DNA from: Terriglobales bacterium
Lineage (GTDB): Bacteria; Acidobacteriota; Terriglobia; Terriglobales; Acidobacteriaceae
Assembly: GCA_025980765.1 (NCBI GenBank)
Contig: JAICXB010000018.1
Span: 1,155-65,154, forward strand
Reading direction: 5' to 3'
Length of the DNA: 64,000 nt
In this document: positions 5,719 to 60,485 of the stretch, piece after piece
Layout of the letters: the number at the start of each line of letters is the position of its first letter
Numbering within the stretch: position 1 is the stretch's first letter
The notes under the pieces: model-generated
The model's database searches: none
Told to the model about the DNA's origin: nothing
The model's input: the letters and a program-made list of their open reading frames with translations, nothing else
Translations under genes and position numbers: made by a program

Positions 5719-7165
5719 GCTCTCCCGCTTCGAGCAACTCGACCAGGCAATCGAAAGGCTGCTCTCGCGCAGCGACACAGCGCAGTTCGAGGTCGACGCC
5801 GAACTTTCAACCCTGCTGCGTCTGGCAGGCGAACTTCGCGCGGCCCCACGCGAGCAATTTATTCAATCGCTTAAGAGCGATTTACAAAGGAGTACTTCAA
5901 TGGCAACCACAGCAGAGCCTGCAGCCACAGTCCGCACCCATGCGGCGCCCGCTTTGAGATTCAAGAGCGCAGCAAAGGCAATCGAATTCTACAAGCGAGC
6001 TTTCCATGCGCAGGAGGTCATGCGCTTCGAGAACGAAGGCGGCATTGGCCATGCCGAATTGATGATCGGCGGCTCGATGATCTTCCTGGGCGAAGAGTGG
6101 CCAGAAGGTGGCCGCTTCAGCGCCGAGACCCTGGGAAATACACCGATCAGCATCGAACTGGACGTGCCCGACGTCGATGCCTTCGTCGCCCACGCAGTCG
6201 CCGCCGGAGCCAAATTGATTCGCCCGGTATCCGACCAGTTCTACGGATACCGGCAAGGGACGTTGCTCGATCCTTTCGGCTACGTATGGGGGGTCTCGAC
6301 TCTGAAAGAGGAGATGCCGCTGCAGGAGATGCATCGCCGCTTCCGCGCGATGATGGGCCCGCAGCCGCAGCCGGCGAAACCGAAGGTCGATCCCGTTCCC
6401 GCCGGCTATCGCACGCTCACAGCCTATCCGGTGGCGCAGGATGCGCTCGGGCTGATCGAGTTTGTGAAGCGGGCATTTGGCGCTGAAGAGACATTCCGGG
6501 CCGTGGGCCCCGCCGGCGGAATCCATGCGGAGGTGCGCATCGGCGACTCCATGATGATGATGGGTGGCGGCGGTGCCGGACTCGCGTGGCGCGGAGAATC
6601 CATCCCCATGGCTTTTCACCTTTACGTGCCCGACTGCGATGCGACGTATCAGGCAGCGCTCGAGGCCGGCGGCATATCCATCGCGGAACCCGTGGATCAG
6701 TCCTACGGCGAGCGGTCCGCCAGCGTGAATGATCCCGCCGGTAACTTCTGGTACATCGCTACATACAAAGGCGAGAACTACAAGTGGGAAGGCGCGCCCG
6801 ACGTGCAGCCGTATTTGCATCCGTTGCGTGCGCTGCCGGTGATCGATTTCCTCAAGCGCGCCTTCGGCGCCGAGGAGCTAGGCCGCTACGCCTCACCCGA
6901 TGGAGTGATCCATCACGTGACCATGAAGCTCGGCAGCTCACATTTGGAAATGGGCGAAGCACATGGCGTTTATCAGCCAATGCCGGGCATGTTTTATCTG
7001 TACGTTCCCGACTGCGACGCGCTCTACCATCGCGCATTAGCGTCCGGCGCGACATCGATCGCCCCTCCGACCGACCATGATTACGGCGATCGCAGCGGAG
7101 GAGTGAAAGATGCGTTCGGCAACCAGTGGTACATTGCAACCCACATCAAGGACGTGAGTGGGTAA
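5711..7165 (+). CDS. anti-sigma-like N-terminal segment fused to three tandem VOC (glyoxalase/PhnB-like) domains
   Basis: The ATG overlaps the sigma gene stop by 8 nt. There are three internal repeats of the pattern (I/A)xF(Y/V/L)KRAF(H/G)AxE ... D..G(Y/N).W. No TM segment and no zf-HC2 motif. Confidence 0.7.
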   Translation: MPKLSRFEQLDQAIERLLSRSDTAQFEVDAELSTLLRLAGELRAAPREQFIQSLKSDLQRSTSMATTAEPAATVRTHAAPALRFKSAAKAIEFYKRAFHAQEVMRFENEGGIGHAELMIGGSMIFLGEEWPEGGRFSAETLGNTPISIELDVPDVDAFVAHAVAAGAKLIRPVSDQFYGYRQGTLLDPFGYVWGVSTLKEEMPLQEMHRRFRAMMGPQPQPAKPKVDPVPAGYRTLTAYPVAQDALGLIEFVKRAFGAEETFRAVGPAGGIHAEVRIGDSMMMMGGGGAGLAWRGESIPMAFHLYVPDCDATYQAALEAGGISIAEPVDQSYGERSASVNDPAGNFWYIATYKGENYKWEGAPDVQPYLHPLRALPVIDFLKRAFGAEELGRYASPDGVIHHVTMKLGSSHLEMGEAHGVYQPMPGMFYLYVPDCDALYHRALASGATSIAPPTDHDYGDRSGGVKDAFGNQWYIATHIKDVSG

Positions 7166-7227
7166 ACGGAAACGCCCGCCATTGCGGGCGGCGCCGTGTT
7201 CCACAAGGCGATAAAATCTTGTCACCG

Positions 7228-7965
7228 ATGAGCGCCCACTCGGCGGTGAAGCGCGTTTCAACTCTTGGTAGTTTGAAACGCGAACTCGCGCAGGCAGCCG
7301 ATCCCGAACGGGCGCGCAATCTCGCCTGGTTTTTCAAAACGGGACAAGGCGAATACGGAGAAGGGGACGAGTTCCTCGGCATCACCGTGCCGGCGCAGCG
7401 TGTCCTCGCGAAGAAATACCGTCACTTGGATCTCGCGGATATCGCGAAGCTTCTCCAGTCTGGCAAGCACGAGCATCGCTTCACTGCCCTGCTGATTCTG
7501 GTCGCGCAGTACCAATCCGGCGACTGCGACAAGCGGCAAGAAATCTTCGACCTCTATCTTGGGCACACCGCTTGCGTCAACAACTGGGACTTAGTGGATA
7601 CTTCCGCTACATACATTGTTGGAGAGCATCTAGTCTCGCGCCCGCGGCGGATTCTCTATCATCTCGTCAAATCGCCAAATTTATGGGAACGCCGCATTGC
7701 AATCGTCGCGACGGCGGCTTTCATCCGCAGAGGTGACCTCAAAGAAGCGTTTGCCATTGCCGGCCGGCTGCTCGCGGACAAGCACGATCTCATCCACAAA
7801 GCAGTCGGTTGGATGTTGCGGGAAGCGGGAAAGCATTCGCAAGCAGAGATGATCGACTTTCTCAAGCGTAATTACTCGCAAATGCCACGCACTACGTTGC
7901 GCTATGCAATCGAGCGCCTCCCCGCGGCCGAGCGAAAGAGGGCTTTGAAAGGAATGTTCCGCTAG
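7228..7965 (+). CDS. DNA alkylation repair protein (AlkD-like HEAT-repeat family)
   Basis: FFKTGQGEYGEGDEFLGI and WERR motifs. I chose the ATG at 7228 over the upstream alternative start in the ORF track. Confidence 0.7.
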   Translation: MSAHSAVKRVSTLGSLKRELAQAADPERARNLAWFFKTGQGEYGEGDEFLGITVPAQRVLAKKYRHLDLADIAKLLQSGKHEHRFTALLILVAQYQSGDCDKRQEIFDLYLGHTACVNNWDLVDTSATYIVGEHLVSRPRRILYHLVKSPNLWERRIAIVATAAFIRRGDLKEAFAIAGRLLADKHDLIHKAVGWMLREAGKHSQAEMIDFLKRNYSQMPRTTLRYAIERLPAAERKRALKGMFR

Positions 7966-10674: not shown

Positions 10675-11028
10675 CTATTGTGCTTCTCCAAGAATCAGGC
10701 CGATGGCGCGTGTCATGTGCTTCCAGCGATTGGTCTCGATCGTGAGCTGTTTCCGCCCCTTGGGAGTAAGCCAATAAAACTTTGCCTTGCGGTTGTTTTC
10801 GCTCACCCCCCATTCGGAAGCAAGCAAGCCGCGATCTTCCAGTCGATGAAGCGCCGGGTAAAGCGAACCCTGCTCGATTTCAAGGGCATTCTCCGATGTG
10901 TGCTCTATGACTTCTGCTATGGTGTGGCCGTGAGCGCGACCCGGGAGCAGTGTCCGGAGAATGAGGAGATCCAGAGTTCCCTGCAAAATCTCGCCTGCAA
11001 TGTGCGTGTCTTTGCGCGATATAGGCAT
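10675..11028 (-). CDS. PadR family transcriptional regulator
   Basis: 117 aa with a winged-helix pattern (LDLLILRTL..GRAHGHTIAEVIE..SLYPALHRLEDRGLL). Sits upstream of the ADOP permease in the same operon. Confidence 0.85.
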   Translation of the reverse strand: MPISRKDTHIAGEILQGTLDLLILRTLLPGRAHGHTIAEVIEHTSENALEIEQGSLYPALHRLEDRGLLASEWGVSENNRKAKFYWLTPKGRKQLTIETNRWKHMTRAIGLILGEAQ

Positions 11029-20514: not shown

Positions 20515-20580
20515 AATTAACAACAATTTACAAACTCCCACCTGCGACTTTTGCTTACGACTGTGCGTAGTAACAGTCGA

Positions 20581-21174
20581 ATGTTTCAGACGGCAAGCCG
20601 CGTGGTGGAGTGCACTCTACGAGAGAACGTCGAGATTGCCCGAGGTCTACGTCGTCGTGACCCGGAGTTGCTCGACCGCCTGATCGAGCGATATCAGCAC
20701 CGTCTGCTGCGCTATCTCGTCTTCCTCACGGGCAATCGCGACCTCGCCGAAGACATCTTCCAGGAAACCTGGATCCGCGTAATGGAACGCGGGCGCCAAT
20801 ACAACGGGAAATCGAAATTCGACACCTGGCTCTTCGCCATAGCGCGACATCTGGTGATCGATTGGTCACGTAAGAAGACCACCACCAGCCTCGAAGCTCT
20901 CCAGGAGCAATATGGGAATGAGCACTCGTTCGACGTGCCCTCGACTGGACCTTCGCCCTTTGACGCCGTGACATCCAGCGAGAGCCGGGCAAGCGTGCAG
21001 GCGGCACTGAGGACGCTCGATTCTATGCATCGCGAGGTGCTGGTGTTGCGCTTCCATGAAGAATTGTCGCTGGAGGAAATCGCTACCGTAACAGATGCTC
21101 CGCTCTCCACGGTCAAATCGCGTCTCTATCGCGGTTTGGCAGCATTGAAGCCGGCGTTCGCGGAGGCGAGTTAA
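20581..21174 (+). CDS. ECF sigma factor
   Basis: Region 2 (LLDRLIERYQHRLLRYL, DIFQETWIRV) and region 4 (LSLEEIATVTDAPLSTVKSRLYRG). ATG at 20581 preferred. Confidence 0.85.
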   Translation: MFQTASRVVECTLRENVEIARGLRRRDPELLDRLIERYQHRLLRYLVFLTGNRDLAEDIFQETWIRVMERGRQYNGKSKFDTWLFAIARHLVIDWSRKKTTTSLEALQEQYGNEHSFDVPSTGPSPFDAVTSSESRASVQAALRTLDSMHREVLVLRFHEELSLEEIATVTDAPLSTVKSRLYRGLAALKPAFAEAS

Positions 21175-21677
21175 TGGTGCGCCGCTTCTCCGATGAGCAC
21201 GCACGCGCCGAGGAATTGGCTGGTTCGCGAATTGCGGGCATTATTTCCGATGCGGAGAGCCAATGGCTCGACAATCATCTGGCTGAGTGCCCTGCGTGTG
21301 TCGCTGAAGCGGAACAGATGCTGGCCGCCATCTCCGCACTGAAAACGGTTTCAATCAGCGCGCGCGCACAGTTGGTGCAGAATACGCAGAGACAGGTGCG
21401 CAATCTCTGCGTGCAAAGTCGGCAGCGCCGGCGTCGAATGCGTCCAGTGTGGGTTTCGTCCGCCTTGGCTTCTGCCTGGATGGCATGTGCCACGCCCTAT
21501 CTATGGCAGTCGTTTGATCTCACCGGGCACTGGCTGCATATTCCCGATTTGCTGTGGCAGATGGGATTTCTGGTGACATGGTTTACCCCAGCGCTGACCG
21601 GGGCCGCAGTGGCGCTGTGGCTGCGTCCACACGCCGCGGAGAAAGCACGGCCACAGATGAACCGGGCCACGGCCTAG
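21174..21677 (+). CDS. zf-HC2-type anti-sigma factor, membrane-anchored
   Basis: The start overlaps the sigma stop by 1 nt. HLAECPACVAEAE motif with hydrophobic segments in the C-terminal half. Confidence 0.7.
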   Translation: MVRRFSDEHARAEELAGSRIAGIISDAESQWLDNHLAECPACVAEAEQMLAAISALKTVSISARAQLVQNTQRQVRNLCVQSRQRRRRMRPVWVSSALASAWMACATPYLWQSFDLTGHWLHIPDLLWQMGFLVTWFTPALTGAAVALWLRPHAAEKARPQMNRATA

Positions 21678-21704
21678 TTCTCACGAAAGCAGTTTTGACC
21701 GGAA

Positions 21705-22235
21705 ATGGACTTTAACAACATCGACGAGCAGAAGCCGCAAATCAGCGACGAACTCCGCCTGATTCCAATGTGGTCTGTGGCATTGGCCGTGGCGCTCTTT
21801 GCCGCCGTGCAGGCGGTGGTCCATCTCTATTTGACGCAGCACCAGCACAATCTTCCGCCGCGCGGATTTCTCGTCTTCTGGAGCCTGGCGTGGGGCACAG
21901 TAATCGCCGTGTACACGCTAATGGTCGGCTATGTCACGCGCGACGCTAAACGGCGTGGCATGAACGTCGGGCTATGGACGCCGCTGGTGATCTTCATGCC
22001 CGGCGCAATCGGGCTGGTACTCTACTTCCTTCTTCGCCAACCACTGGTCACGAAATGTCCGCAATGCTCCGCCGGCATTTCGCCGGGAATAAACTTCTGC
22101 ACCCAATGCCGTTTCCAGCTAGTGCCGATTTGCCAGCAGTGCCGGCGCGCGGTTCGCATCACCGATGTGTATTGCGGCAATTGCGGCGAAGATCTCAACG
22201 TGAGTGAAGCGTTTCCAATGAGACGTTTCAGATAA
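21705..22235 (+). CDS. membrane protein with a C-terminal double zinc-ribbon
   Basis: Three to four TM segments followed by CPQC...CTQC...CQQC...CGNC. Confidence 0.6.
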   Translation: MDFNNIDEQKPQISDELRLIPMWSVALAVALFAAVQAVVHLYLTQHQHNLPPRGFLVFWSLAWGTVIAVYTLMVGYVTRDAKRRGMNVGLWTPLVIFMPGAIGLVLYFLLRQPLVTKCPQCSAGISPGINFCTQCRFQLVPICQQCRRAVRITDVYCGNCGEDLNVSEAFPMRRFR

Positions 22236-22272
22236 GGCGTTTCAAAGAGAGCGTTTCACGAGAGGCGTTTCA
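22203..22272 (+). repeat. five tandem 14-bp units, consensus GAGAGGCGTTTCAN
   Basis: CGTTTC starts at 22210, 22224, 22238, 22252 and 22266, an exact 14-bp period. The first two units overlap the last codons of the upstream CDS. Confidence 0.9.
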
Positions 22273-22296
22273 GGGCTCTGGCGAATGTTTTTTGGT

Positions 22297-22385
22297 TTTT
22301 GGAACGCCTTTCGTCAAAACGCTTTTCTTGAAACGACTCTCCTGACACGCATTACCTGGAAACGCCTTTCCGTCTCAAACGCTAT
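22297..22385 (-). repeat. six copies of the same 14-bp unit in reverse orientation (TGAAACGCCTTTC)
   Basis: The central C of ACG falls at 22305, 22320, 22334, 22348, 22363 and 22380 (spacing 14-17 bp). The array ends 18 nt before the LytTR regulator start. Confidence 0.85.
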
Positions 22386-22402
22386 ACTCTGAATAGCCGA
22401 AA

Positions 22403-23176
22403 ATGCCTATTTCCACCATCATTGTCGATGACGAGGAGCTCGCGCGCGAAGAATTGGGATTTCTATTGAAATCGGTTGCCGATGTGGACGTTGTGGCGCA
22501 GGGCGCCAACGGCGTCGAAGCCATTCAACTGATTCGCGAACATAATCCCGAACTCGTCTTCCTCGATGTGCAGATGCCTGGCCTGGATGGCTTCGCCGTA
22601 ATTAAGAAGCTGGTAGATAAGAAGCATCCGCTTCCGCAGATCGTCTTTGCCACCGCCTTCGACCAGTATGCGGTTCGAGCCTTCGAAGTAAATGCCGTTG
22701 ACTATCTCCTCAAGCCTTTCGATAAAAAGCGCGTTGCACAGTCGGTGGAGAAAGCGCGGCAAAAACTGTCGGCTCCGCCCAGCTCCAGCGAACGACTCGA
22801 ATCACTGATCAACTTACTCGAGCAGCAGCAAAAGCCTCAGCAGCAGAAGATACTGCTGCGTTCGGCAGGACGGCTGATTCTGGTGGACCAAAAAGACATT
22901 TGCTTCGCGACCATCGAAGAAGGCGTGATCACCGTAGTCGCGGGCAATATGGAAGGCCATTCCAACTGCCGGACATTGGAGGAATTGATCGACAGCCTCG
23001 ATCCGAATGTGTTCTGGCGCGCACACCGCTCGCATGTGGTGAATATTAACCGCATCAAGGAAGTTCTGCCCTGGTTCAAGAGCTCGTATCAACTGCGCAT
23101 GGATGACCGCAAGCAGACGGAACTACCGGTGAGCCGCGCGCAAACCAAGCGGCTCCGAGAATTGTTTGGGCTGTAA
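22403..23176 (+). CDS. LytR/AlgR family response regulator (REC + LytTR DNA-binding domain)
   Basis: IIVDDEELAREEL, VFLDVQMPGLDG and KPF in the receiver. LytTR-like C-terminus (FWRAHRSHVVNINRIKEV). Confidence 0.9.
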   Translation: MPISTIIVDDEELAREELGFLLKSVADVDVVAQGANGVEAIQLIREHNPELVFLDVQMPGLDGFAVIKKLVDKKHPLPQIVFATAFDQYAVRAFEVNAVDYLLKPFDKKRVAQSVEKARQKLSAPPSSSERLESLINLLEQQQKPQQQKILLRSAGRLILVDQKDICFATIEEGVITVVAGNMEGHSNCRTLEELIDSLDPNVFWRAHRSHVVNINRIKEVLPWFKSSYQLRMDDRKQTELPVSRAQTKRLRELFGL

Positions 23177-23214
23177 ACCATGGGTTAACACGGAGGCTGA
23201 AGAGAAGCTCGCCT

Positions 23215-23763
23215 TCAGTCTGCCTTAGTGGCCTTCATGTTTACCCCGGCTGCGAAACGCTTCTGACTTTCGATGATGAGGCTGCGAGCTTGCGATGCGT
23301 CAGTCCAGCCTTTCGTCTCCACGCGTTTGCCTTCAAGATCTTTGTAGATGGAAAAGAAGTGCACGATTTCGCGCAGCATGTGCGGGTAAATTTCTGAGTA
23401 GTTCCACACATCTTTGTATCGAGGATTACTCTTGCCCACTGCCAGGAGTTTCTCGTCCGGCGTGCCCTGATCCACCATTTGCAGAACGCCGATGGGCCGA
23501 ACTTCCATTACACATCCCGAGAAACTGGGATTGTCGACCAGCACCAACACATCCAGGGGATCGCCGTCGAGGCTCAGTGTGCTGGGGAGGAACCCGTAAT
23601 CGCCGGGAAAGTGGACTGGTGAGTATAAGTTTCGATCCAGGCGGAATACGTGCAGCGTCTTGTCATATTCGTACTTATTGACGGACTGCAGCGGGATCTC
23701 CACAACCATGTTGACCACTTCCGGCGCCTGGTCGCCCAGCGGAAGATTGAGGTAGTTGAGCAT
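23215..23763 (-). CDS. ppa: inorganic diphosphatase
   Basis: 182 aa with family I PPase motifs (NKYEYDK, DGDPLDVLVL). Confidence 0.9.
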   Translation of the reverse strand: MLNYLNLPLGDQAPEVVNMVVEIPLQSVNKYEYDKTLHVFRLDRNLYSPVHFPGDYGFLPSTLSLDGDPLDVLVLVDNPSFSGCVMEVRPIGVLQMVDQGTPDEKLLAVGKSNPRYKDVWNYSEIYPHMLREIVHFFSIYKDLEGKRVETKGWTDASQARSLIIESQKRFAAGVNMKATKAD

Positions 23764-23770
23764 CCCCGGA

Positions 23771-23859
23771 GGTTAACACGAAGGCACGAAGGCTGAACAA
23801 AGGTCGTAGAGCGCTGTTGGTAGTGATCTTATCTTCGCGTCGTGCCCTTCGCGTAAACC
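23771..23859. repeat. GGTTAACACGAAGG...CTTCGCGTAAACC inverted-repeat element in the ppa/purS divergent intergenic region
   Basis: Left arm 23771-23798 is ggttaacacgaaggcacgaaggctgaac. Right arm 23833-23859 is cttcgcgtcgtgcccttcgcgtaaacc. Same termini type as 54015-54119. Confidence 0.7.
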
Positions 23860-23880
23860 GGACAGCTATAATCAATATCA

Positions 23881-24126
23881 ATGAAGGCCTACGTTTACGT
23901 CACCCTGAAGAGCACCGTTCTTGATCCTCAAGGAAAGACGATTCATGGCGCTCTGCGCAAGATGAACTATCGCGGAGTGGGTGATGTGCGGCAAGGGAAA
24001 TACTTTGTTCTGAGTCTGGAGCCGAATTTGGGCAGAGAAACGGCAAAGGCCGAGGTGGAGCGCATTGCCCGCGAGGTGCTCACGAATCCCGTGATCGAGG
24101 AGTTTTCCTACAAGATCGAAGATTGA
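23881..24126 (+). CDS. purS: phosphoribosylformylglycinamidine synthase subunit PurS
   Basis: 81 aa. MKAYVYVTLKSTVLDPQGKTI...NPVIEEFSYKIE is the typical PurS sequence. Confidence 0.9.
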   Translation: MKAYVYVTLKSTVLDPQGKTIHGALRKMNYRGVGDVRQGKYFVLSLEPNLGRETAKAEVERIAREVLTNPVIEEFSYKIED

Positions 24127-24130
24127 GGTA

Positions 24131-24187
24131 CAGCTTCTAAGCTGCTGAGAGCAGCTTCTGAGCTGCTAAGCCTCTAAGCTGCTGAGG
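24131..24187. repeat. AGCTGCTGAG/CAGCTTCT low-complexity palindromic repeat cluster
   Basis: cagcttctaagctgctgagagcagcttctgagctgctaagcctctaagctgctgagg contains several overlapping 4-6 bp stem hairpins. Related motifs occur at 7961-7996 and 35100-35142. Confidence 0.7.
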
Positions 24188-24368
24188 TTGAAATCGACCG
24201 TTGCCGTTTGGCATGGCTTGGCAGCTCCCGTCGCGTAACTCAATCGCTACCGCTGGTAACTGCCGTGCCCGCCGAAATTCGGGTAAGCTCCATGTGAGGG
24301 GCTTACGAGCGCTCAGCGCTGCAGCGGAAACAAAGTTGAATCGCCGAGCTTAGAAGCTTAGGAGCTTT

Positions 24369-26240
24369 ATGTGTGGCATCGTCGGATATGTAGGTCATAA
24401 ACGCGTCGTTCCAGTAATTATCGAAGGGCTGAGGAAGCTGGAATATCGCGGCTATGATTCTGCCGGAATCGCTGTAGCGGGAAATGGGGACGGGCTCCAG
24501 GTGCGCCGCGCTGAAGGCAAGCTGCGCAATCTGGAAGAGGCGATTCGCTCCAAACCGCTGGATGGCACCTATGGCATCGGGCACACCCGCTGGGCCACGC
24601 ACGGACGTCCGACAGAAGAAAACGCCCATCCTCACCGGGACTGCACCGGCAAAATCGTCGTGGTCCATAATGGGATTGTCGAGAACTACCTTCCGCTGAA
24701 AAAGCGCCTCATCGATCAAGGCCACAAGTTCACCACCGAGACCGATACCGAGGTCATTGCCCACCTGATTGAGGAGGCATTCACGACCGGTAACGGAACT
24801 CGTCCGAAGTTGGAGGATGCCGTTCGTAAAACGGTGAAGCAACTCACCGGAGTGTTTGCGCTGGTAGTAATCAGTACGGAGGATCCCAACAAAATCGTCG
24901 CTGCGCGAAACGGTCCACCAGCGGTGATCGGACTAGGGAAAGACGAGTATTTCATTGCATCCGACATTCCCGCGCTGCTCGATCATACCCGCGATTTGTT
25001 TTTCCTGTCCGATGGAGACCTGGCGGTGATCACTGCCAGCGGTGTGCAGCTCACCGATTTCGATGGCAAGCCGGTGCAGCGCCAGGTGCAGCGCGTGACT
25101 TGGGACCCGATTCAGGCGGAAAAGGGTGGCTTCAAACACTTCATGCTCAAGGAAATTTATGAGCAGCCGCGCGCCGTTCGCGATACCACTTTGGGTCGCA
25201 TCTCGCAGGATTCAGGCAAGATTTTCCTGGAAGAGATGGCGATCGCGGAAGAAGAGTTCCGCCAGATCAAGAAAGTCAATATCGCGGCCTGTGGCACCAG
25301 TTGGCATGCAGGACTCGCAGGCAAGTTCATGATTGAGCGGCTGGCGCGCGTCCAGGTGGAAGTGGATTATGCCAGCGAATACCGCTATCGCGATCCCATC
25401 ACTGGGCCTGAAGCGCTGACGCTGCTGATTACCCAATCGGGCGAGACCGCAGACACGATCGCGGCGCAACGCGAAGCGAAGGCCAAGCATTCGAAGACGC
25501 TCGCCATCTGCAACGTCGTGGGCGCGATGATTGCGCGGGAAGCCTCGGGCACGATTTACACACACGCCGGCCCGGAGATTGGCGTGGCTTCCACCAAGGC
25601 ATTCACCGCGCAGCTTACGGCATTGTTCTTGTTCGCGCTCTTTCTGGCGCAGACACGCAATCAAATTGATGATGCTCAATCGTTAGCAATGGTGGGAGAA
25701 CTAACACGATTGCCCGGCAAGCTCGAGGCGATTCTCAATCATGATGAAGCCTGTGAGAATCTGGCAAAGCAGTACCAGCGCGCGCAGGATTTCCTTTTCC
25801 TCGGCCGCGGAATTCACTATCCCATCGCGCTTGAAGGCGCTTTGAAGCTGAAAGAGATCAGCTACATCCATGCGGAAGGCTATCCCGCCGGCGAGATGAA
25901 GCACGGGCCCAATGCGTTAATCGATGAAAGTCTGCCGGTGGTTGTGCTCGCCACACGCGATTCCAATGATCCCGATTCGGTACTGCGCTACGAAAAGACT
26001 GTCTCCAACATCAAGGAAGTAACTGCTCGTTCCGGCAAGGTCATCGCCATTGCGACTGAGGGCGACAAGCAAATCCAGGAGTCAGCCGACCACGTGCTGT
26101 ACGTTCCCGAAGCGCCGGAGCTGATGTTGCCTATTCTGGAGATCGTGCCCCTGCAGCTTCTGGCGTATCACATCGCCGTGCGCCGCGGGTGCGATGTGGA
26201 TCAGCCCCGGAACCTGGCAAAATCGGTAACCGTGGAGTAA
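24369..26240 (+). CDS. glmS: glutamine--fructose-6-phosphate aminotransferase
   Basis: 623 aa. [10 protein letters not shown]-terminal nucleophile, two SIS domains and a C-terminal ...KSVTVE. Confidence 0.95.
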
Positions 26241-26456: not shown

Positions 26457-29400
26457 ATGGGCGCTAAGCCCAAAACTGCACGTGCGCCACGCGCGCGCAC
26501 GCCTTCTCGCGCTTCCAGAAATGGGAATGGAGCGTATTCCTACATCGATCCGGGCTCTGAGTTGTTTCGGAATATCGTCGAGAACGCCAACGATCTGATC
26601 TACACACATGACATGGATGGAAACCTCTCATGGGTGAATGTCTCGGTGGTGCGGCTCACCGGTTATAGCCGGGAAGAATTACTAACGAAGAACATTTTCG
26701 AGTTGGTTTCCGAAGATCTGGTTCCGACAATTCGTGAGCGGCAGGCAAGATGGCGTAACGGCGAGGAACTCCCGCCGTTTCAATCTGAGATTGTGACCAA
26801 AGATGGAATGCGCCGCGCCATCGAGGTTAGTTCCAAAATGCTCCGGGATCGCAGCGGCGCTATCACCATGCTGGGAATCGGTCGCGACATCACCGATCGC
26901 CTGTTTGCCGAGCGAGCGCTGCGCGAGAGCGAAAACCGTTTTCGTGCCTTTGTGGAACAATCTTCCGACATCATTTCGCTGCTCGACCCCTTGGGGAATG
27001 TCATTTATCAGAGTGAGTCCAGCGCTCGCCATCTCGGCTACAGCCCGCAAGAGTTGGTTGGCCGCCGATGCTTCGACTTTGTACATCCGGAAGATGTCGA
27101 AACCGCGCTGCAAGGCTTTCGCCAGGGCCTGGAAGATCCGGCCCAAGGCGATCCGATCACGGTCCGTCTGCGCCACAAGGCAGGACATTGGAAATCATTT
27201 GAAGCGGTGAGCAGCACATATGTGATCGCGGGCTATAAAGCGGGCTTGCTGGTCAGCTTTCGCTACGTCGCAGACCGCCACGAAACCGAAAAAGAATTGC
27301 GTCGCTCCGAGGAGCGCTATCGCCAGTTATTCCGGCGCAATCTTGCCGGAGTGTTCGTCAGCAAGGCCACCGGAGGTTTGATCGATTGCAACGATTCGTT
27401 CGCGCAAATGTTCGGATACGGTTCACGCGAAGAGCTGCTGCGACTCACAGAGTTCGATTGTTATTTCGAGCCCGGCGACCGGCAGCGCTTCATCCAGTTG
27501 CTGCAGCGGCTGAAAACAATTTCCAACGTAGAGAGCCGCCTCAAGCGTCGCGACGGTTCCGAGCTCTGGGTACTGGAGAATGCCAGTCTGCTGGAAGAAG
27601 GCATGATCGAGGGCACTCTGGTCGACATCACCGAGCGGAAGCGCACGGAGCAGGCCCTGGTGGAAAGCGAGAGCAAGTTTCGCGTGCTCGCAGACACGGC
27701 CACCACAGCCATCTACATTCATGATGGGAAGCGGTTTCTCTACACCAATCAGGCCTGCGCGGAGATAAGTGGCTACAGCAGCGAAGAACTGGCTGAGCTT
27801 GATCCTTGGCGTTTAGTGCATCCTTCCGATCGTCAACTGGCGCGCGACCGTGCAGAGGCGCGGTTGCGCGGCGAGTGCCGGTCAGAGCGCTACGAAATGC
27901 GCATTCAGACTAAGAATGGGGAAGAGCGCTGGCTGGATTTCTGCGCCAGTGCTACCCAGTTTGAAGGACAACATGCTGTTCTGTGCACGGCGTTCGACGT
28001 GACCGAGCGCAAACGCGCGGAGCGATTGCAGCAGGCGCTGTATCGAATCAGCGACTGTGCCAATACCGTGGAAGATCTGCAGCACCTCTATCGCGCGCTG
28101 CACGAGATTGTTGGAGAGTTGACCTACGCGCGAAATCTATATATCGGATTGCTCGACAGCAGCGGCGATTACCTGCAATTTCCGTACTTTGTTGATGAAA
28201 GCGATCCCAATCCGCCGGAGGGAAGGCCTCTGGGAAAAGGCCTTACGGAATACATTCTGCGCACAGGTAAACCGCTATTGGCCGATTTCAGCAAGATTCG
28301 CGAGCTCGAACAGAGCGGCGACATTGAACCCATCGGACCCGACTGTATTGATTGGCTGGGCGCCCCGCTACGCTCTGGAAATTCCGTTTTCGGCGTCATT
28401 GCGCTGCAAAGCTATGATCCCGCGATTCGCCACGATGAGCGCGACAAAGAAATTCTTACCTACGTTTCGCAGCACATCGCGGTCGCTATCGAGCGCAAGC
28501 GACAGCAGGAAGCGCTGCGAATCTCCGAGGCACGCCATCGCTCTCTGGTGGAAAGCGCGGTGTACGGGATGTATCGTTCCAGCATCGACGGCCGATTTCT
28601 GGATGTGAATCCTGCGTTAGTAAACATGCTGGGCTATACCTCGCCGGATGAACTCATCTCCGTGGATATGGCGCGCGACATTTATGGAGATCGCGAAGAG
28701 CGCGGCAAGATCCTCCAGAACTATTTCCATAATGGGAAGCTTGAGACGCAAGAGGTCCGATGGAAGCGCAAAGACGGTCGTCTCATTACCGTCCGGCTCA
28801 GCGGAAAACCGTTCAGGAATGAACGCGGCGAAACTCTGGGATTCGAGATGGTCGCCGAAGATGTCACCGAGCGCCGCACGCTGGAAGAGCAGCTACGCCA
28901 ATCGCAAAAGATGGAAGCGGTAGGGCGTCTGGCTGGCGGCATTGCGCACGATTTCAACAACCTGCTCACCGTCATCAAGGGGTATAGCGAGCTGATGCTG
29001 GGCGAACTCGATGGAGCTCACCCGTTGCGAACAGAGTTGGACGAGATCAGGAAAGCGGCGGATCGTGCGGCATCTCTTACCCGCCAGCTTCTTGCATTCA
29101 GCCGCCAACAGGTGCTTGCGCCCAAGGTTATCGACCTGAACTCGGTTCTCCATAACATGGATAAACTCCTGCGCCGGCTGCTGGGAGAAGACATTGATCT
29201 CTTCACCGTGTTGGAGGGCTCTCTGGGACGAGTAAAAGCCGATCCGGGGCAGATCGAGCAAGTTGTCATGAATCTCGCAGTCAATGCGCGCGATGCCATG
29301 CCGCAAGGCGGAAAGCTCACCATTGAGACCGCGAACGTCGATCTCGACAGCGAATATGCACGCGAGCACGTTTCGGTGAAGCCTGGGTCCTACGTGATGA

Positions 29401-30050
29401 TTGCCGTGAGCGACAGCGGCGTGGGAATGACGGAGAAGGTGAAGTCAAAGATTTTCGAACCATTCTTCACCACCAAAGATGTGGGCAAGGGCACTGGTCT
29501 TGGTCTCTCGACTGTGTATGGCATCGTCAAGCAGAGCGGCGGATACGTGTGGGTGTACAGCGAAGTTGGCATCGGATCCACCTTCAAAGTCTATTTGCCG
29601 CGGATTGATGCTCCCGCGGACGTGGCGCCTGAGCATTCGCCGACTTTGGTTTTTAAGGGAAGCGAAACGGTACTCCTGGTGGAAGATGAGGATGGCGTCC
29701 GCGCTCTCGTTCGTCAGGTCCTGCACAGGAACGGTTACAACGTTATCGAAGCCCGCCATGGCGGCGAGGCGTTACTCGCGTGTGAACGTCATCCGGGAAA
29801 GATCGATTTGTTGCTTACTGACGTCGTGCTCGAACAGATGAGCGGGCGCGAGCTGGCTGAACGACTGCTTCAGATCCGTCCCGAAATGAAAGTCTTGTAC
29901 GTCTCAGGTTATGCCGATGACGCGATCGTTCATCACGGAGTTCTCACCCCCGGTGCGGCATTCCTGCAAAAGCCATTTACCACGGAAGCGCTGGCAAGAA
30001 AGTTGCGTTGTGTTCTCGATGGAACGCTGGCTGCCGCCGCGTATTCCTAG
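26457..30050 (+). CDS. multi-PAS/GAF hybrid sensor histidine kinase with a C-terminal receiver
   Basis: 1197 aa. Repeated PAS/PAC blocks separated by ERK..E..L..SE..FR linkers, plus a GAF-like segment. H-box GGIAHDFNNLL, HATPase boxes NLAVNARDAM, DSGVGM and GTGLGLS. Receiver motifs LLVEDEDGVR and DLLLTDVVL. Confidence 0.9.
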   Translation: MGAKPKTARAPRARTPSRASRNGNGAYSYIDPGSELFRNIVENANDLIYTHDMDGNLSWVNVSVVRLTGYSREELLTKNIFELVSEDLVPTIRERQARWRNGEELPPFQSEIVTKDGMRRAIEVSSKMLRDRSGAITMLGIGRDITDRLFAERALRESENRFRAFVEQSSDIISLLDPLGNVIYQSESSARHLGYSPQELVGRRCFDFVHPEDVETALQGFRQGLEDPAQGDPITVRLRHKAGHWKSFEAVSSTYVIAGYKAGLLVSFRYVADRHETEKELRRSEERYRQLFRRNLAGVFVSKATGGLIDCNDSFAQMFGYGSREELLRLTEFDCYFEPGDRQRFIQLLQRLKTISNVESRLKRRDGSELWVLENASLLEEGMIEGTLVDITERKRTEQALVESESKFRVLADTATTAIYIHDGKRFLYTNQACAEISGYSSEELAELDPWRLVHPSDRQLARDRAEARLRGECRSERYEMRIQTKNGEERWLDFCASATQFEGQHAVLCTAFDVTERKRAERLQQALYRISDCANTVEDLQHLYRALHEIVGELTYARNLYIGLLDSSGDYLQFPYFVDESDPNPPEGRPLGKGLTEYILRTGKPLLADFSKIRELEQSGDIEPIGPDCIDWLGAPLRSGNSVFGVIALQSYDPAIRHDERDKEILTYVSQHIAVAIERKRQQEALRISEARHRSLVESAVYGMYRSSIDGRFLDVNPALVNMLGYTSPDELISVDMARDIYGDREERGKILQNYFHNGKLETQEVRWKRKDGRLITVRLSGKPFRNERGETLGFEMVAEDVTERRTLEEQLRQSQKMEAVGRLAGGIAHDFNNLLTVIKGYSELMLGELDGAHPLRTELDEIRKAADRAASLTRQLLAFSRQQVLAPKVIDLNSVLHNMDKLLRRLLGEDIDLFTVLEGSLGRVKADPGQIEQVVMNLAVNARDAMPQGGKLTIETANVDLDSEYAREHVSVKPGSYVMIAVSDSGVGMTEKVKSKIFEPFFTTKDVGKGTGLGLSTVYGIVKQSGGYVWVYSEVGIGSTFKVYLPRIDAPADVAPEHSPTLVFKGSETVLLVEDEDGVRALVRQVLHRNGYNVIEARHGGEALLACERHPGKIDLLLTDVVLEQMSGRELAERLLQIRPEMKVLYVSGYADDAIVHHGVLTPGAAFLQKPFTTEALARKLRCVLDGTLAAAAYS

Positions 30051-38071: not shown

Positions 38072-38210
38072 GAGGAAAGGAACAGGAAAGAAACAGGAAA
38101 GCTGCTGAAACAGCCGTAAGTTGCTGCTGAAAATAGGCTTAGTCGCTAGAATTCCAAACCATTCAAGAAATTCTCAGGAAAGGAACAGGAAACGAACAGG
38201 AAAGGAAAGC
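38072..38210 (+). repeat. two copies of a ~31-nt purine-rich direct repeat (AGGAAAGGAACAGGAAAGAAACAGGAAAG)
   Basis: Copy 1 is 38072-38102 and copy 2 is 38175-38205, with about 28/31 identity. They are separated by about 70 nt. Confidence 0.8.
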
Positions 38211-38583: not shown

Positions 38584-39267
38584 GTGAGATCCCGAACAAA
38601 GAAAGCCGACAGCCAGTTTGGCTGTCGTGGCGATTTGCCAAAACCGGCCTTCGCCGACGGCTCAGGTGAAGCCGCGCTCGCGCATTTGCGCGCGGCTGAT
38701 CCCGTGCTTGCTGCTGTCATCGATCGTGTCGGCGCCTACGCCATGCAATATCACGAACCCACCTTCCGCGCGCTGGTGCGCTCAATCGTCTTTCAGCAAC
38801 TCCATGGTTCGGCCGCGCGCGCGATCTTCGACCGCCTGCTGAAGAAAGCCGGAGGAGAGATTACTCCAGATTCGATTCTGAAGCTGCGCCCTGCGCAAAT
38901 GCGCTCTCTCGGACTCTCCAAGCAAAAGCTCACTTACATCCGCGATCTTGCCCGCAAGACCCGCGACGGAGTCGTCGAATTCGGACGATTTCCGCGGATG
39001 TCGGATGAAGAAGTCATCGCCGAACTGACGCAGGTGAAAGGTATCGGCGAGTGGACCGCGCACATGTTTCTGATGTTTGCCTTGCGCCGCCCGAACATCC
39101 TGCCCACCGGCGACTTTGGGGTGCGCAACGCGATGCGAAAAGCGTATGGAATGAAGGTCATGCCGAAACCGGTCACCATGAAGCGTATGGCGAAGAACTG
39201 GCATCCCTACTGCTCGGTTGCAAGCTGGTATATGTGGCGTTCACTAGACGTGCCGGTGGAGCTGTGA
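38584..39267 (+). CDS. HhH-GPD family DNA-3-methyladenine glycosylase II
   Basis: 227 aa. HhH-GPD core (QQLHGSAARAIFDRL, LTQVKGIGEWTAHMFLMFAL, PTGDFGV). GTG start. Confidence 0.8.
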   Translation: MRSRTKKADSQFGCRGDLPKPAFADGSGEAALAHLRAADPVLAAVIDRVGAYAMQYHEPTFRALVRSIVFQQLHGSAARAIFDRLLKKAGGEITPDSILKLRPAQMRSLGLSKQKLTYIRDLARKTRDGVVEFGRFPRMSDEEVIAELTQVKGIGEWTAHMFLMFALRRPNILPTGDFGVRNAMRKAYGMKVMPKPVTMKRMAKNWHPYCSVASWYMWRSLDVPVEL

Positions 39268-39270
39268 GTG

Positions 39271-39408
39271 GTCAGTTGTCAGTAACCAGTTGTCAGTATT
39301 CAGTTATCAGTATTCAGTTTCTTGCGGTCCTGAATCCTTCTCGGCCGTGATGACGACTAACAACTGATTACTGAAAACTGTTCACTAAAACTGATTACTG
39401 ACAACTGC
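39271..39408. repeat. long imperfect hairpin with arms built from tandem CAGTTGTCAGTA-type units
   Basis: The left arm 39271-39317 has (cagttgtcagta)-like units. The right arm 39357-39408 has reverse-complement units (tactgacaactg). Confidence 0.75.
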
Positions 39409-55549: not shown

Positions 55550-55731
55550 CACCACGGAGGCACGGAGAGCACGGAGAAACGATTGTGTTGTGGAAGTTGT
55601 CATCCCGAAGTCCGCCGGGCCGGACGGAGGGATCTGCTGTTCGGTCCAAGAAGCAGATCCTTCGCTTCGCCTCGGGATGACAATTGGAACATCCTAAAGT
55701 TGTGCTCCGTGTCCTCCGTGCCTCCGTGGTG
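55550..55731. repeat. composite element: (CACGGAG)n / (CTCCGTG)n inverted arms enclosing a GTCATCCCGA...TCGGGATGAC hairpin
   Basis: Outer arms are 55550-55580 and 55702-55731. The inner hairpin is 55599-55681, with a sub-stem ggatctgct/agcagatcc. Confidence 0.8.
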
Positions 55732-60287: not shown

Positions 60288-60454
60288 CCACGGATTGCAC
60301 GGATGTCACGGATTCAGCGGATAAAGCCTGGGAGAGTGACAAATCATTTCCGGGCGTCGAAACAAAAGTCTCTTCCGCGACATTCAATCGGAAACGAAGA
60401 ATCACACCCGATAAAAATTCATCCGTGCGATCCGTGACATCCGTGTAATCCGTG
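60288..60454. repeat. (CACGGAT)4 ... (ATCCGTG)4 inverted heptamer-repeat element in the TetR/SDR divergent promoter region
   Basis: The left arm 60288-60322 is ccacggattgcacggatgtcacggattcagcggat. The right arm 60421-60454 is atccgtgcgatccgtgacatccgtgtaatccgtg. Confidence 0.8.
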
Positions 60455-60485
60455 ATAGAGCTTTTGCGTTTGATTTTGGAGGCAC

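What the first reader, a model, noticed from the sequence alone, without database searches (positions are those of the whole stretch)
22203..22385. Eleven copies of a 14-bp unit (5 forward, 6 reverse) immediately upstream of a LytTR response-regulator gene
Forward units (consensus GAGAGGCGTTTCA) have CGTTTC at 22210, 22224, 22238, 22252 and 22266, an exact 14-bp phase. A T-rich spacer of about 25 nt follows. Then six reverse-complement units (TGAAACGCCTTTC) are spaced 14-17 bp apart and end 18 nt before the ATG of the REC-LytTR regulator at 22403. The first two units are embedded in the last codons of the upstream zinc-ribbon membrane protein gene. Two explanations seem possible. It may be a multi-site operator, since LytTR domains bind short direct repeats and the unit shares a CGTT core with the LytTR consensus. 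Or it may be a roughly 70-bp hairpin that can pair in several 14-nt registers, acting as a terminator or attenuator between the two genes. The regularity is well beyond an ordinary terminator.
Basis: seen in the sequence. Interest (0 to 1): 0.65.

Follow-up and report, generated by a model that had tools for sequence, protein, structure and literature searches.

The report
Intergenic tandem-repeat hairpin, not LytTR operator
The eleven 14-base units are real, but they are one copy of a common, fast-changing kind of intergenic repeat hairpin in these soil Acidobacteria (Terriglobia), found at many unrelated genes, and not a binding-site array for the neighbouring LytTR regulator.

Summary
There are 5 forward CGTTTC units in exact 14-nt phase, a T-rich loop, and 6 reverse units. 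Together they fold into a ~70-bp hairpin (-78.8 kcal/mol, z = -5.8) that still folds well when shifted by one unit.

The LytTR-operator reading is not supported:
- The array is absent upstream of 80 orthologous regulator genes, including a 91%-identical one.
- Many of those orthologues carry inverted tandem arrays with quite different units in the same position.
- The 64-kb window holds four more such arrays, with other units.
- CGTTTCA arrays of the same 14-15-nt type lie beside cox1/cox3, cyaY and etfA/ETF-QO, with no LytTR gene detected nearby.

The feature is a lineage-specific member of a widespread class of heptamer-phased inverted tandem arrays. I counted 37 in 1.5 Mb of Terriglobia DNA against 1 in shuffled sequence. 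The closest description is the convergent GGGAATC repeat pairs of Xanthomonas.

The arms show no G·U bias on the sense strand. The arrays show no preference for gene 3' ends. There is no U-tract. A dedicated terminator role is therefore unproven.

I think it most likely arose by unit slippage as a tolerated DNA-level structure. Incidentally it separates the upstream operon from the regulator's own conserved promoter, and it has overwritten that promoter's -35 box. One unexplained rule emerged: the G-rich arm is almost always the 5' arm.

The parts
21705..22235 (+). Upstream gene: double zinc-ribbon membrane protein, last gene of an ECF sigma (20551-21174) / anti-sigma (21174-21677) / DZR cluster. 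Its last codons contain forward units 1 and 2.
   Evidence: ORF list. Pfam DZR, Sigma70_r2/r4 and zf-HC2. Same gene order in L081-L083.
22205..22273 (+). 5' arm: five forward units, each a heptamer core CGTTTC(A/C) followed by a purine-rich heptamer-like spacer, in exact 14-nt phase. This is the G-rich arm (G-C = +7).
22274..22299 (+). T-rich loop of the hairpin. It is not a terminator U-tract, because no adequate stem directly precedes it.
   Evidence: The loop sequence is entirely different in the L084 allele.
22300..22382 (+). 3' arm: six reverse units (G/A/C)(G/A)(A/C)ACG with pyrimidine-rich spacers, spaced 14-17 nt. It occupies the place where orthologues have the -35 box.
22383..22388 (+). 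TATACT, the conserved -10 box of the regulator gene's own promoter. The ATG follows 14 nt later with no GGAG, so the mRNA is likely near-leaderless.
   Evidence: Alignment of 69 orthologous upstream regions on this hexamer; sequence.
22403..23176 (+). Orphan REC-LytTR response regulator, highly conserved across Terriglobia.
   Evidence: Pfam Response_reg + LytTR. 8000 homologues with E <= 1e-40. 80 orthologous loci with tblastn identity 70-91%.
24131..24367 (.). Another member of the class: an asymmetric inverted array (CTAAGCTGCT-type units) between purS and glmS, ending 2 nt before the glmS ATG.
39263..39407 (.). Another member: heptamer array TCAGTNN x6, a loop, then NNACTGA x4, starting at the stop codon of the HhH-GPD gene.
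55553..55728 (.). Another member: CACGGAG x3, a loop, then CTCCGTG x3. The loop holds a nested dispersed palindromic element at 55599-55681.
60289..60455 (.). Another member: CACGGAT x4, a loop, then ATCCGTG x4, between divergent TetR and SDR genes.

Best explanation
The 22205-22389 feature is a lineage-specific copy of a widespread kind of intergenic element in Terriglobia. The element is an inverted pair of short tandem-repeat arrays phased on heptamers. Here the unit is a compound 14-mer: CGTTTCA plus a purine-rich heptamer. The two arms together form a long, imperfect, register-tolerant hairpin.

Shown:
- The architecture recurs with many unrelated unit sequences, across this window and across related genomes.
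- It recurs with different units at this very position upstream of the regulator gene.
- The CGTTTCA type occurs at unrelated genes.
- The array is older than the split from a lineage with about 20% third-codon-position divergence, and since then it has changed by gain and loss of whole units and by replacement of the loop.

Inferred:
- It arose and is remodelled by slipped-strand mispairing on the repeated core. It may have been seeded by the CGTTTC-containing last codons of the upstream gene or by the GAAAACG-like promoter spacer.
- It is kept because intergenic DNA tolerates it, not because the LytTR regulator binds it.
- Its effects on the neighbouring genes are side effects. In read-through RNA from the sigma/anti-sigma/Zn-ribbon operon it would form a hairpin of about -79 kcal/mol just after the stop codon, which could hinder read-through or 3' exonucleases. 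At the DNA level it has replaced the -35 box of the regulator's otherwise conserved promoter.
For: Recurrence of the architecture:
- Four further inverted arrays with other units lie in the 64-kb window, against 0 in 30 Markov shuffles.
- There are 37 such arrays in 1.515 Mb of Terriglobia loci plus the window, against 1 in shuffled sequence. Unit spacings are 7 (37x), 8 (20x), 9 (11x), 14 (12x) and 21 (3x).
- There are 179 short tandem arrays against 24 in shuffles, and 67% of them lie in the 16% of DNA that is non-coding.

Same position, different units: orthologues L008, L011, L012, L013, L019, L021, L027, L030, L046, L061 and L075 carry other unit arrays directly upstream of the same regulator promoter.

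Close relatives:
- The L084 type (regulator protein 99% identical, gene 92.5% nt identity, third positions 80%) has at least 7 forward and 5 reverse CGTTTCA units, other spacers and another loop, and still folds at -76.2 kcal/mol.
- L081 (98%) keeps 4 forward units but has lost the reverse arm.
- L001 (91%) has no array.
- Both alleles share some spacer variants across arms (for example CAGGTA), which indicates a common ancestral array followed by differential loss and gain of units.

CGTTTCA 14-15-nt arrays at cox1/cox3, cyaY, etfA/ETF-QO and a Rieske-like gene.

No sign of RNA-level or 3'-end-specific selection in the class:
- Transition differences between arms are G·U-compatible on the sense strand 22 times and on the antisense strand 27 times. 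For this locus the counts are 5 and 5.
- The arrays fall in co-directional, convergent and divergent gaps 23/8/6 times, against 20.7/6.7/9.6 expected from gap length, p = 0.40.

Precedent: Xanthomonas GGGAATC heptamer repeats form 70-75 convergent inverted pairs per genome in intergenic DNA. Their length varies between species while the type is preserved (PMC4692102).
Against: - Within the forward arm the CGTTTC core is unchanged in every unit while the spacers differ by about half. This could mean selection on the core sequence, for example a protein that reads it, rather than neutral slippage.
- Arrays commonly start 0-15 nt after a stop codon and fill the whole gap, which would also suit a 3'-end function.
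- The strong polarity rule (G-rich arm 5' in 26 of 34 scorable Terriglobia arrays and 27 of 29 metagenome arrays) is not predicted by simple slippage. It points to a directional mechanism or to selection that I cannot name.
- No transcript-end or binding data exist for this organism. RNA contigs for a related MAG stop inside such arrays, but assembly breaks at repeats would give the same picture.
Confidence: 0.62

Rival explanations
1. Dedicated RNA hairpin with a selected function. It would act as a factor-dependent or U-tract-independent terminator or attenuator, or as a 3'-end protective stem like REP sequences in E. coli operons. It would separate the sigma/anti-sigma/Zn-ribbon transcript from the regulator gene.
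For: - Very stable hairpin starting inside the last codons of the upstream gene.
- Hairpin retained in the L084 allele despite sequence change.
- Most class members begin 0-15 nt after a stop codon.
- The regulator has its own conserved promoter right after the hairpin.
- Metatranscriptome contigs of a related MAG run from the regulator gene into the first arm and loop of its downstream array and stop there.
Against: - No U-tract after the stem, and the terminator scan found nothing there.
- Differences between arms are not biased towards G·U on the sense strand (22 vs 27).
- Sense-strand folds are more stable than antisense folds in only 11 of 21 co-directional cases.
- Six or seven of the 37 arrays lie between divergent genes, and the overall distribution matches gap length.
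- L081 and L001 do without the hairpin.
Confidence: 0.2
2. Multi-site operator bound by the adjacent REC-LytTR regulator (autoregulation).
For: - The unit contains CGTT, the core of the LytTR consensus.
- The proximal units overlap a promoter that lacks a -35 box. Class II activators such as LytTR regulators typically act at that position (own knowledge).
- The core is invariant in the forward arm.
Against: - Absent in 80 orthologues whose regulator and promoter are conserved.
- The unit matches only 5 of 9 consensus positions.
- 14-nt phase and inverted arms, instead of direct repeats about 21 nt apart (own knowledge of AgrA, ComE and AlgR sites).
- Other-unit arrays occupy the same position in orthologues.
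- Same-type arrays lie at cox, cyaY and etf loci, and no LytTR ORF was detected in 120 CGTTTCA-array loci.
- Reverse-arm cores are degenerate (GGAACG, AAAACG, GACACG, CAAACG).
Confidence: 0.05
3. Array of binding sites for a protein that reads single-stranded nucleic acid in heptamer steps (cold-shock or S1-type OB-fold proteins, or a CsrA-like protein). This was proposed for TAACTGA heptamer repeats in Beggiatoaceae. The hairpin would then compete with protein binding.
For: - Heptamer phasing dominates the class.
- Each array has an invariant core and variable spacers.
- Several arrays end within a few nt of a start codon that lacks an SD: glmS in the window, ETF-QO in L192.
- The proposal, and the observation that CspB binds one protein per heptamer, are in PMC4679880.
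Against: - Dozens of unrelated cores occur in one genome, and a sequence-specific reader for each is implausible.
- No strand bias relative to the genes.
- The inverted architecture is not required by this model.
Confidence: 0.06
4. Non-autonomous mobile element (MITE- or REPIN-like) whose inverted ends are made of sub-repeats.
For: - The same arm sequence recurs at non-orthologous loci of one genome. For example, AGATTGT(T/G)GATTTCAGATTGCAGATT occurs at two loci in both L013 and L019, with unrelated loops.
- Metagenome contigs match only the CACAGAG arms and then diverge.
- A different small palindromic element is nested in one loop.
Against: - Loops are unique and of variable length.
- No target-site duplications were seen.
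- The arms are not themselves palindromes and have no conserved GTAG/CGTC head as REPs do.
- This array begins inside a coding sequence whose units are conserved as codons.
- Only one CGTTTC array occurs in 64 kb.
Confidence: 0.07

Closest known systems
Convergent inverted pairs of GGGAATC heptamer repeats in Xanthomonas (Rehm et al. 2015, PMC4692102)
   Same: - Intergenic tandem arrays of about 7-nt units with an invariant core and one variable position.
- Two arrays on opposite strands close together, able to form a stem-loop.
- 'Convergent' orientation, meaning the G-rich array comes first on each strand. That is the same polarity as found here.
- Repeat length differs between related species while the type (single or paired) is preserved.
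- Function unknown.
   Different: - Xanthomonas has essentially one G-rich unit with G-quadruplex potential. Terriglobia have dozens of unrelated units per genome, most without G-runs.
- The unit here is a compound 14-mer.
- The first two units here are codons of the upstream gene.
Cyanobacterial STRR heptamer repeats and TAACTGA heptamer repeats of Beggiatoaceae, Cyanobacteria and Bacteroidetes (MacGregor 2015, PMC4679880; Mazel 1990 and Elhai 2008 from my own knowledge)
   Same: - Short tandem heptamers, overwhelmingly intergenic.
- Often they end a few nucleotides before a start codon or overlap the end of the upstream ORF.
- 'Split' sets alternate two related heptamers.
- The window's 39263-39407 array (NNACTGA) is close to TAACTGA.
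- A small palindromic element is nested inside one array. From memory, Elhai 2008 described small dispersed repeats nested in heptamer arrays.
   Different: - Those arrays are almost always direct and oriented with the downstream gene (169 direct sets against 1 inverted set in the Beggiatoa genome). Here inverted pairs are frequent and show no gene-strand bias.
REP / BIME / REPIN elements of Proteobacteria (PMC3116915, PMC3733652)
   Same: - Abundant intergenic hairpin-forming repeats.
- Often in inverted doublets with a variable spacer.
- Present between co-transcribed genes, where they can stabilise upstream mRNA.
   Different: - REP units are themselves 20-40-bp palindromes with a GTAG/CGTC head. 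They are near-identical genome-wide and are spread by RAYT transposases.
- These arms are non-palindromic simple-sequence arrays of many families, and no transposase link was found.
LytTR-family operator sites (AgrA, ComE, AlgR, BtsR/YpdB)
   Same: Short repeated motif with a CGTT-like core next to a promoter that lacks a good -35 box.
   Different: Known sites are two or three direct 9-bp repeats about 21 nt apart and are conserved with the regulator. Here there are eleven units at 14 nt in two inverted arms, and they are not conserved with the regulator.

Membership tests
LytTR operator | 9-bp motif [TA][AC][CA]GTTN[AG][TG] (own knowledge: Nikolskaya & Galperin 2002) | tested here: not met
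   The unit GGCGTTTCA matches 5 of 9 positions, the CGTT core and the N only (sequence).
LytTR operator | Direct repeats with a 12-13-bp spacer (about 21 nt centre to centre) | tested here: not met
   Period 14 nt. The two halves are inverted with respect to each other.
LytTR operator | The site co-varies with, or is conserved alongside, the regulator in orthologous promoters | tested here: not met
   0 of 80 orthologous upstream regions have a CGTTTC array. No conserved columns lie upstream of the -35 box.
LytTR operator | Physical binding by the regulator | not testable with these tools
   Needs EMSA or footprinting.
Intrinsic (Rho-independent) terminator | Compact GC-rich stem-loop directly followed by a U-tract | tested here: not met
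   The stem is about 70 bp. It is followed by CTCTGAATAGCCGAAAATG with no T-run, and the scan finds no site at 22200-22400.
Intrinsic (Rho-independent) terminator | Transcript 3' ends map to the structure | tested here: inconclusive
   Only one RNA contig covers the window (22289-22468). In the related MAG L025, RNA contigs stop inside arrays, but repeats also break assemblies.
Inverted pairs of intergenic heptamer-type tandem repeats (Xanthomonas GGGAATC kind) | Tandem units of about 7 nt or a multiple, with an invariant core and variable positions | tested here: met
   The 14-nt unit is CGTTTCA plus a 7-nt purine-rich spacer. Class-wide spacings are 7, 8, 9, 14 and 21.
Inverted pairs of intergenic heptamer-type tandem repeats (Xanthomonas GGGAATC kind) | Two arrays on opposite strands in convergent (G-rich first) orientation, able to form a stem-loop | tested here: met
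   The forward arm has G-C = +7. The fold is -78.8 kcal/mol. The polarity holds in 26 of 34 and 27 of 29 arrays.
Inverted pairs of intergenic heptamer-type tandem repeats (Xanthomonas GGGAATC kind) | Intergenic and present at many loci per genome | tested here: met
   Five loci in 64 kb and 37 in 1.5 Mb, nearly all between genes. This particular unit occurs once in the window and at unrelated loci elsewhere.
Inverted pairs of intergenic heptamer-type tandem repeats (Xanthomonas GGGAATC kind) | Copy number varies between relatives while the position and type persist | tested here: met
   Window: 5 forward + 6 reverse units. L084 type: at least 7 forward + 5 reverse. L081: 4 forward + 1 reverse.
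REP / REPIN | Each repeat is an imperfect palindrome with a GTAG/CGTC head and is near-identical genome-wide | tested here: not met
   The arms are non-palindromic tandem arrays. There is one CGTTTC array in the window.
REP / REPIN | RAYT transposase in the genome | not tested
   Only 64 kb of the genome is available.
MITE | Terminal inverted repeats, target-site duplication and a shared internal sequence among copies | tested here: not met
   Loops are unique at each locus and allele. No flanking duplications were seen.
Rfam RNA families | Match to a curated covariance model | tested here: not met
   Only a tRNA reaches the gathering score in the window. In 22100-22480 there are only sub-threshold microRNA-hairpin matches.

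The most novel reading that the evidence does not exclude
Terriglobia, and many other soil and water bacteria in the metagenome sample, carry an undescribed genome-wide system of intergenic hairpins whose stems are heptamer-phased tandem repeats of many unrelated sequences. All obey one polarity rule: the G-rich arm is 5' of the loop, whichever strand is read. Because a reverse-complemented inverted repeat keeps its arm order, this handedness cannot come from gene orientation. It implies either a directional generating mechanism, for example fold-back copying that works only when the nascent strand is the self-pairing G/T-rich one, or a function that works in both directions and needs G-rich RNA or DNA to appear first, for example a two-way transcription or supercoiling barrier. 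The Xanthomonas GGGAATC pairs would be a special case of the same thing.
Probability: 0.35. Interest if true: 0.65.

Novelty: new member of a known kind. Interest (0 to 1): 0.42.

Why it matters
For this locus: the array should not be used to infer a LytTR binding motif or regulon. It also explains why short-read assemblies break here.

More broadly:
- Heptamer-type intergenic repeats have been noted for decades in cyanobacteria, Xanthomonas and Beggiatoaceae without a known function or origin.
- Terriglobia offer many independent unit families at orthologous positions, copy-number variants between close lineages, and a clear polarity rule.
- Together these make questions of origin (slippage or fold-back copying) and effect (transcript ends, promoter insulation, supercoiling) directly testable in cultivable acidobacteria.
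- The arrays are also a practical hazard for MAG assembly and for motif-discovery pipelines.

Tried and rejected
- Rfam at gathering score and at E <= 1 gave no relevant family.
- The sigma-70 promoter and intrinsic-terminator scan of 21600-24500 found nothing at the array.
- I searched for other GCGTTTC clusters in the window and found none, 24 hits against 16.5 expected overall.
- I tested for LytTR linkage of CGTTTCA arrays in 120 metagenome loci by phmmer with the window's LytTR domain and got no hit. A single-sequence search could miss distant LytTR domains.
- RNA evidence for the window organism is one 181-nt contig in an oligo-dT library covering 22289-22468, which is uninformative. Metatranscriptome contigs for MAG L025 end inside arrays, but assembly breaks confound this.
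- Comparing sense and antisense fold energies (11 of 21) and counting G·U pairs in separate MFE folds at first suggested a sense bias at this locus (10 vs 3). A strand-neutral arm alignment removed it (5 vs 5 here, 22 vs 27 overall).
- I looked for arm-to-arm co-evolution between the window and L084 alleles as a sign of template switching. Shared 6-mers are not allele-specific, so I dropped that claim.
- The T-rich loop is not the U-tract of a terminator formed by the 5' arm alone, because the stem just before it is only 4 bp.
- CRISPR, MITE and REP readings were rejected on architecture.
- Literature searches for a description of such arrays in Acidobacteria found none. Elhai 2008 is not in the library.
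Full report
OBSERVATION

CGTTTC occurs at 22210, 22224, 22238, 22252 and 22266, an exact 14-nt phase. TRF reports period 14 with 4.6 copies, and the repeat finder family D1 has spacings 14,14,14.

A T-rich stretch at 22274-22299 follows. Then come six reverse units: GGAACG 22301, AAAACG 22316, GAAACG 22330, GACACG 22344, GAAACG 22359 and CAAACG 22376. Their spacing is 15, 14, 14, 15 and 17 nt.

The upstream ORF (21705-22235; Pfam double zinc ribbon) ends with TAA at 22233-35, so the first two units are codons (..EAFPMRRFR*). The REC-LytTR ORF starts at 22403.

Five CGTTTC in 62 nt has P = 2e-10 given the window's own frequency. As RNA, 22195-22405 folds into one long hairpin of -78.8 kcal/mol, z = -5.8. 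As DNA the z-score is -4.3. With one unit masked on either arm the fold is still -69.8 or -58.5 kcal/mol, so pairing in several registers is real.

The same allele occurs in independent soil metagenome assemblies, spanned in one contig in X1 and X3 and with one extra T in the loop in X5.

One correction: the last 'unit' is the regulator promoter's -10 box, TATACT at 22383-22388.

THE ARCHITECTURE IS NOT SPECIFIC TO THIS GENE

TRF output for the whole window already shows other places where a forward array is followed by its reverse complement:
- 39263-39407: TCAGTNN then NNACTGA.
- 55553-55728: CACGGAG then CTCCGTG.
- 60289-60455: CACGGAT then ATCCGTG.
- 24131-24367: CTAAGCTGCT-type units, ending 2 nt before the glmS ATG.
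These are shown. A strict scan (at least 3 copies of a 5-mer, followed within 300 nt by at least 3 copies of its reverse complement) finds three of them in the window and none in 30 Markov shuffles.

The regulator is a highly conserved orphan REC-LytTR protein of Terriglobia. I fetched 80 orthologous loci. None has a CGTTTC array upstream. That includes L001, which is 91% identical, has the same Zn-ribbon gene upstream, and carries a different GC hairpin.

Many orthologues have other inverted arrays in exactly this position:
- GTCGGACCTCGGAC / GTCCGAGGTCCGAC in L008, L011, L012, L013, L019, L021 and L027.
- GGTAATT x6 / AATTACC in L030.
- CACGAAGG / CCTTCGTG in L046, L061 and L075.
Others are listed.

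Across 1.515 Mb (80 loci plus the window) the strict scan finds 37 inverted arrays against 1 in shuffled sequence. Two of the 37 lie in coding sequence and were set aside in the later per-locus analyses, and the two window arrays the scan had missed (22205 and 24131) were added by hand. Unit spacings are 7 (37x), 8 (20x), 9 (11x), 14 (12x) and 21 (3x), so phasing is heptamer-dominated. The 14-nt unit here is best read as the heptamer CGTTTCA alternating with a purine-rich heptamer.

Short tandem arrays in general number 179 against 24 in shuffles, and 67% of them lie in the 16% of sequence that is non-coding. Almost all inverted arrays fill an intergenic gap, typically starting 0-15 nt after a stop codon.

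CLOSE RELATIVES OF THIS LOCUS

Contigs encoding a 99%-identical regulator (L084-L092; gene 92.5% nt identity, third positions 80%) carry a CGTTTCA array at the same place. It differs from the window allele:
- at least 7 forward and 5 reverse units;
- different spacers (GGTAGAC, GGAGAAC, CAAGAAG);
- a different loop.
It folds at -76.2 kcal/mol, z = -6.1.

The 98% relative (L081-L083) keeps four forward units. Two of these are the conserved C-terminal codons EAFQMRRFK*. It has only one reverse unit, followed by about 230 nt of unrelated sequence.

Some spacer variants are shared between arms of different alleles, for example CAGGTA. The alleles therefore descend from one ancestral hairpin and have since gained and lost whole units. 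The element is old relative to this clade, lineage-restricted, and evolves mainly by unit indels.

All nine short-read contigs of the L084 type begin within three bases of the same position inside the array (eight at the same base). That is an assembly break at the repeat.

TEST OF THE OPERATOR IDEA

Orthologous upstream regions align on a conserved promoter, TTG(A/G/C)C-17/18-TATACT, with nothing conserved further upstream. A conserved autoregulatory site is therefore not evident.

In the window the -35 position is occupied by an array unit (..TGGAAACGCC..). The ATG lies 14 nt after the -10 box with no GGAG.

A scan of metagenome contigs for CGTTTCA-N6-9-CGTTTCA-N6-9-CGTTTCA hit its 120-locus limit. 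No ORF in these loci matches the window's LytTR domain (phmmer, E <= 1e-3).

Most hits are heptamer arrays (CGTTTCA/CGCATCA), often as inverted pairs. Four are of the same 14-15-nt purine-spacer type as the window array:
- L124 lies between cox1 and cox3.
- L188 lies beside a frataxin/CyaY gene.
- L192 lies between etfA and ETF-QO, as a single arm ending about 10 nt before the ATG.
- L176 lies beside a Rieske-like membrane protein.
These are shown.

The 14-nt phase and the inverted arrangement also do not fit what I know of LytTR sites, which are direct 9-bp repeats about 21 nt apart.

TEST OF THE TERMINATOR / RNA IDEA

No U-tract follows the stem, and the consensus scan finds no terminator there. 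No Rfam family matches.

If the stems were selected as RNA on the coding strand, differences between arms should favour G·U on that strand. In a strand-neutral alignment of the arms, transition differences are G·U-compatible on the sense strand 22 times and on the antisense strand 27 times. For this locus the counts are 5 and 5. Transversions number 107. Sense folds beat antisense folds in 11 of 21 co-directional cases.

The arrays fall in co-directional, convergent and divergent gaps 23, 8 and 6 times. From gap length I would expect 20.7, 6.7 and 9.6 (p = 0.40). REP-like 3'-end elements would be expected to avoid divergent gaps.

RNA data are thin:
- One 181-nt contig from an oligo-dT library covers 22289-22468.
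- In the peat MAG L025, metatranscriptome contigs run from the regulator gene into the first arm and loop of its downstream array and stop there. None spans another array at 6542-6652. Contigs from other loci share only the arms.
Repeats break assemblies, so this is inconclusive. A hairpin of this strength would hinder read-through or exonucleases if transcribed, but I see no evidence that it is maintained for that purpose.

WHAT IT MOST LIKELY IS

It is a lineage-specific member of a widespread class of intergenic, heptamer-phased, inverted tandem-repeat hairpins.
- Shown: recurrence with unrelated units, recurrence at this position, occurrence of this unit type at unrelated genes, and evolution by unit indels.
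- Inferred: origin and turnover by slipped-strand mispairing, tolerance rather than selection, and incidental effects on neighbours (a barrier after the upstream operon, and replacement of the regulator promoter's -35 box).

UNEXPLAINED

1. Cores stay intact while spacers diverge within an array.

2. There is a strong handedness. The arm 5' of the loop is G-rich in 26 arrays and C-rich in 8, with 3 ties, in the Terriglobia set. Collapsing orthologous positions gives about 19 against 7. In the metagenome loci it is 27 of 29. The 14-nt CGTTTCA family and the heptamer GTGAAAC family place the shared core in opposite arms, yet both put the G-rich arm first.

An inverted repeat reads the same on both strands, so this handedness cannot reflect gene orientation. 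The G/U-rich arm alone self-folds at -35 kcal/mol, against -19 for the other arm. That could matter for a fold-back origin.

COMPARISON WITH WHAT IS KNOWN

The closest description is the GGGAATC heptamer repeats of Xanthomonas. They form 70-75 'convergent' inverted pairs per genome in intergenic DNA. Their length varies between species while the type is preserved, and their function is unknown (PMC4692102). 'Convergent G-rich arrays' is the same handedness as found here.

Related cases are the cyanobacterial STRR repeats and the TAACTGA repeats of Beggiatoaceae, Cyanobacteria and Bacteroidetes. These are nearly always direct and lie just upstream of start codons. Cold-shock, S1 or CsrA proteins have been proposed as their readers (PMC4679880).

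REP/REPIN elements share the intergenic hairpin habit but differ in unit structure and uniformity (PMC3116915).

I found no description of such arrays in Acidobacteria.

VERDICT

The operator interpretation is not supported. The hairpin interpretation is supported as a structure but not as a function. This is a new member of a known but unexplained kind of repeat. Its main wider interest is the diversity of units and the polarity rule.

Noticed in passing
window 24131-24186 and 24343-24367: Asymmetric inverted array (CAGCTTCTAAGCTGCTGAG-type units, then AGCTTAGAAGCTTAGGAGCT) between purS (23881-24126) and glmS. The 3' arm ends 2 nt before the glmS ATG at 24369. No glmS ribozyme or other Rfam match.
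   Followed up: partly
window 39263-39407: Heptamer inverted array (TCAGTNN x6 / NNACTGA x4) starting at the stop codon of an HhH-GPD glycosylase gene and ending 23 nt before a B12-binding-domain gene. The unit resembles the TAACTGA heptamer reported in Beggiatoaceae and cyanobacteria.
   Followed up: partly
window 55599-55681 (inside the 55553-55728 array): A separate dispersed palindromic element, GTCATCC(C/T)GA...GGA(T/C)C..GATCC...TC(G/A)GGATGAC, is nested in the loop of the CACGGAG array. Full copies also occur in L006, L012, L025, L046 and L051.
   Followed up: partly
window 60289-60455: CACGGAT x4 / ATCCGTG x4 inverted array in the divergent promoter region between a TetR gene (start 60184, minus strand) and a short-chain dehydrogenase gene (ATG 60486). 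This shows that the class is not confined to gene 3' ends.
   Followed up: partly
window 38073-38101 and 38175-38207: Two direct (not inverted) copies of an AGGAAAGGAAC x3 array about 100 nt apart in an intergenic region.
   Followed up: no
window 22359-22405, and L001-L080 at about -40 to -7 of the regulator gene: The regulator gene has a conserved promoter (TTGNC-17/18-TATACT) in 69 of 80 orthologues. In the window/L084/L081/L001 clade the ATG lies only 13-25 nt after the -10 box with no GGAG, which suggests a near-leaderless mRNA. The window and L084 alleles lack the -35 box.
   Followed up: partly
All inverted arrays in L001-L213 and the window: Polarity rule: the arm 5' of the loop is G-rich in 26 of 34 scorable Terriglobia arrays and 27 of 29 metagenome arrays, independent of gene orientation. 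No explanation was found.
   Followed up: partly
L084-L092 (position 1 of each contig): Nine short-read contigs from different sequencing runs begin within three bases of the same position inside the repeat array (eight at the same base). These arrays systematically fragment metagenome assemblies.
   Followed up: no
L013 and L019, about 7124-7324 and about 10791-10889: The same 26-nt arm (AGATTGT(T/G)GATTTCAGATTGCAGATT) occurs at two non-orthologous loci of one genome with unrelated loops. This hints that arms can spread between loci.
   Followed up: no
window 26457-30050: Large PAS/GAF hybrid histidine kinase with a C-terminal receiver (1197 aa), 3 kb downstream of the orphan LytTR regulator. 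No LytS-type kinase is adjacent to the regulator.
   Followed up: no
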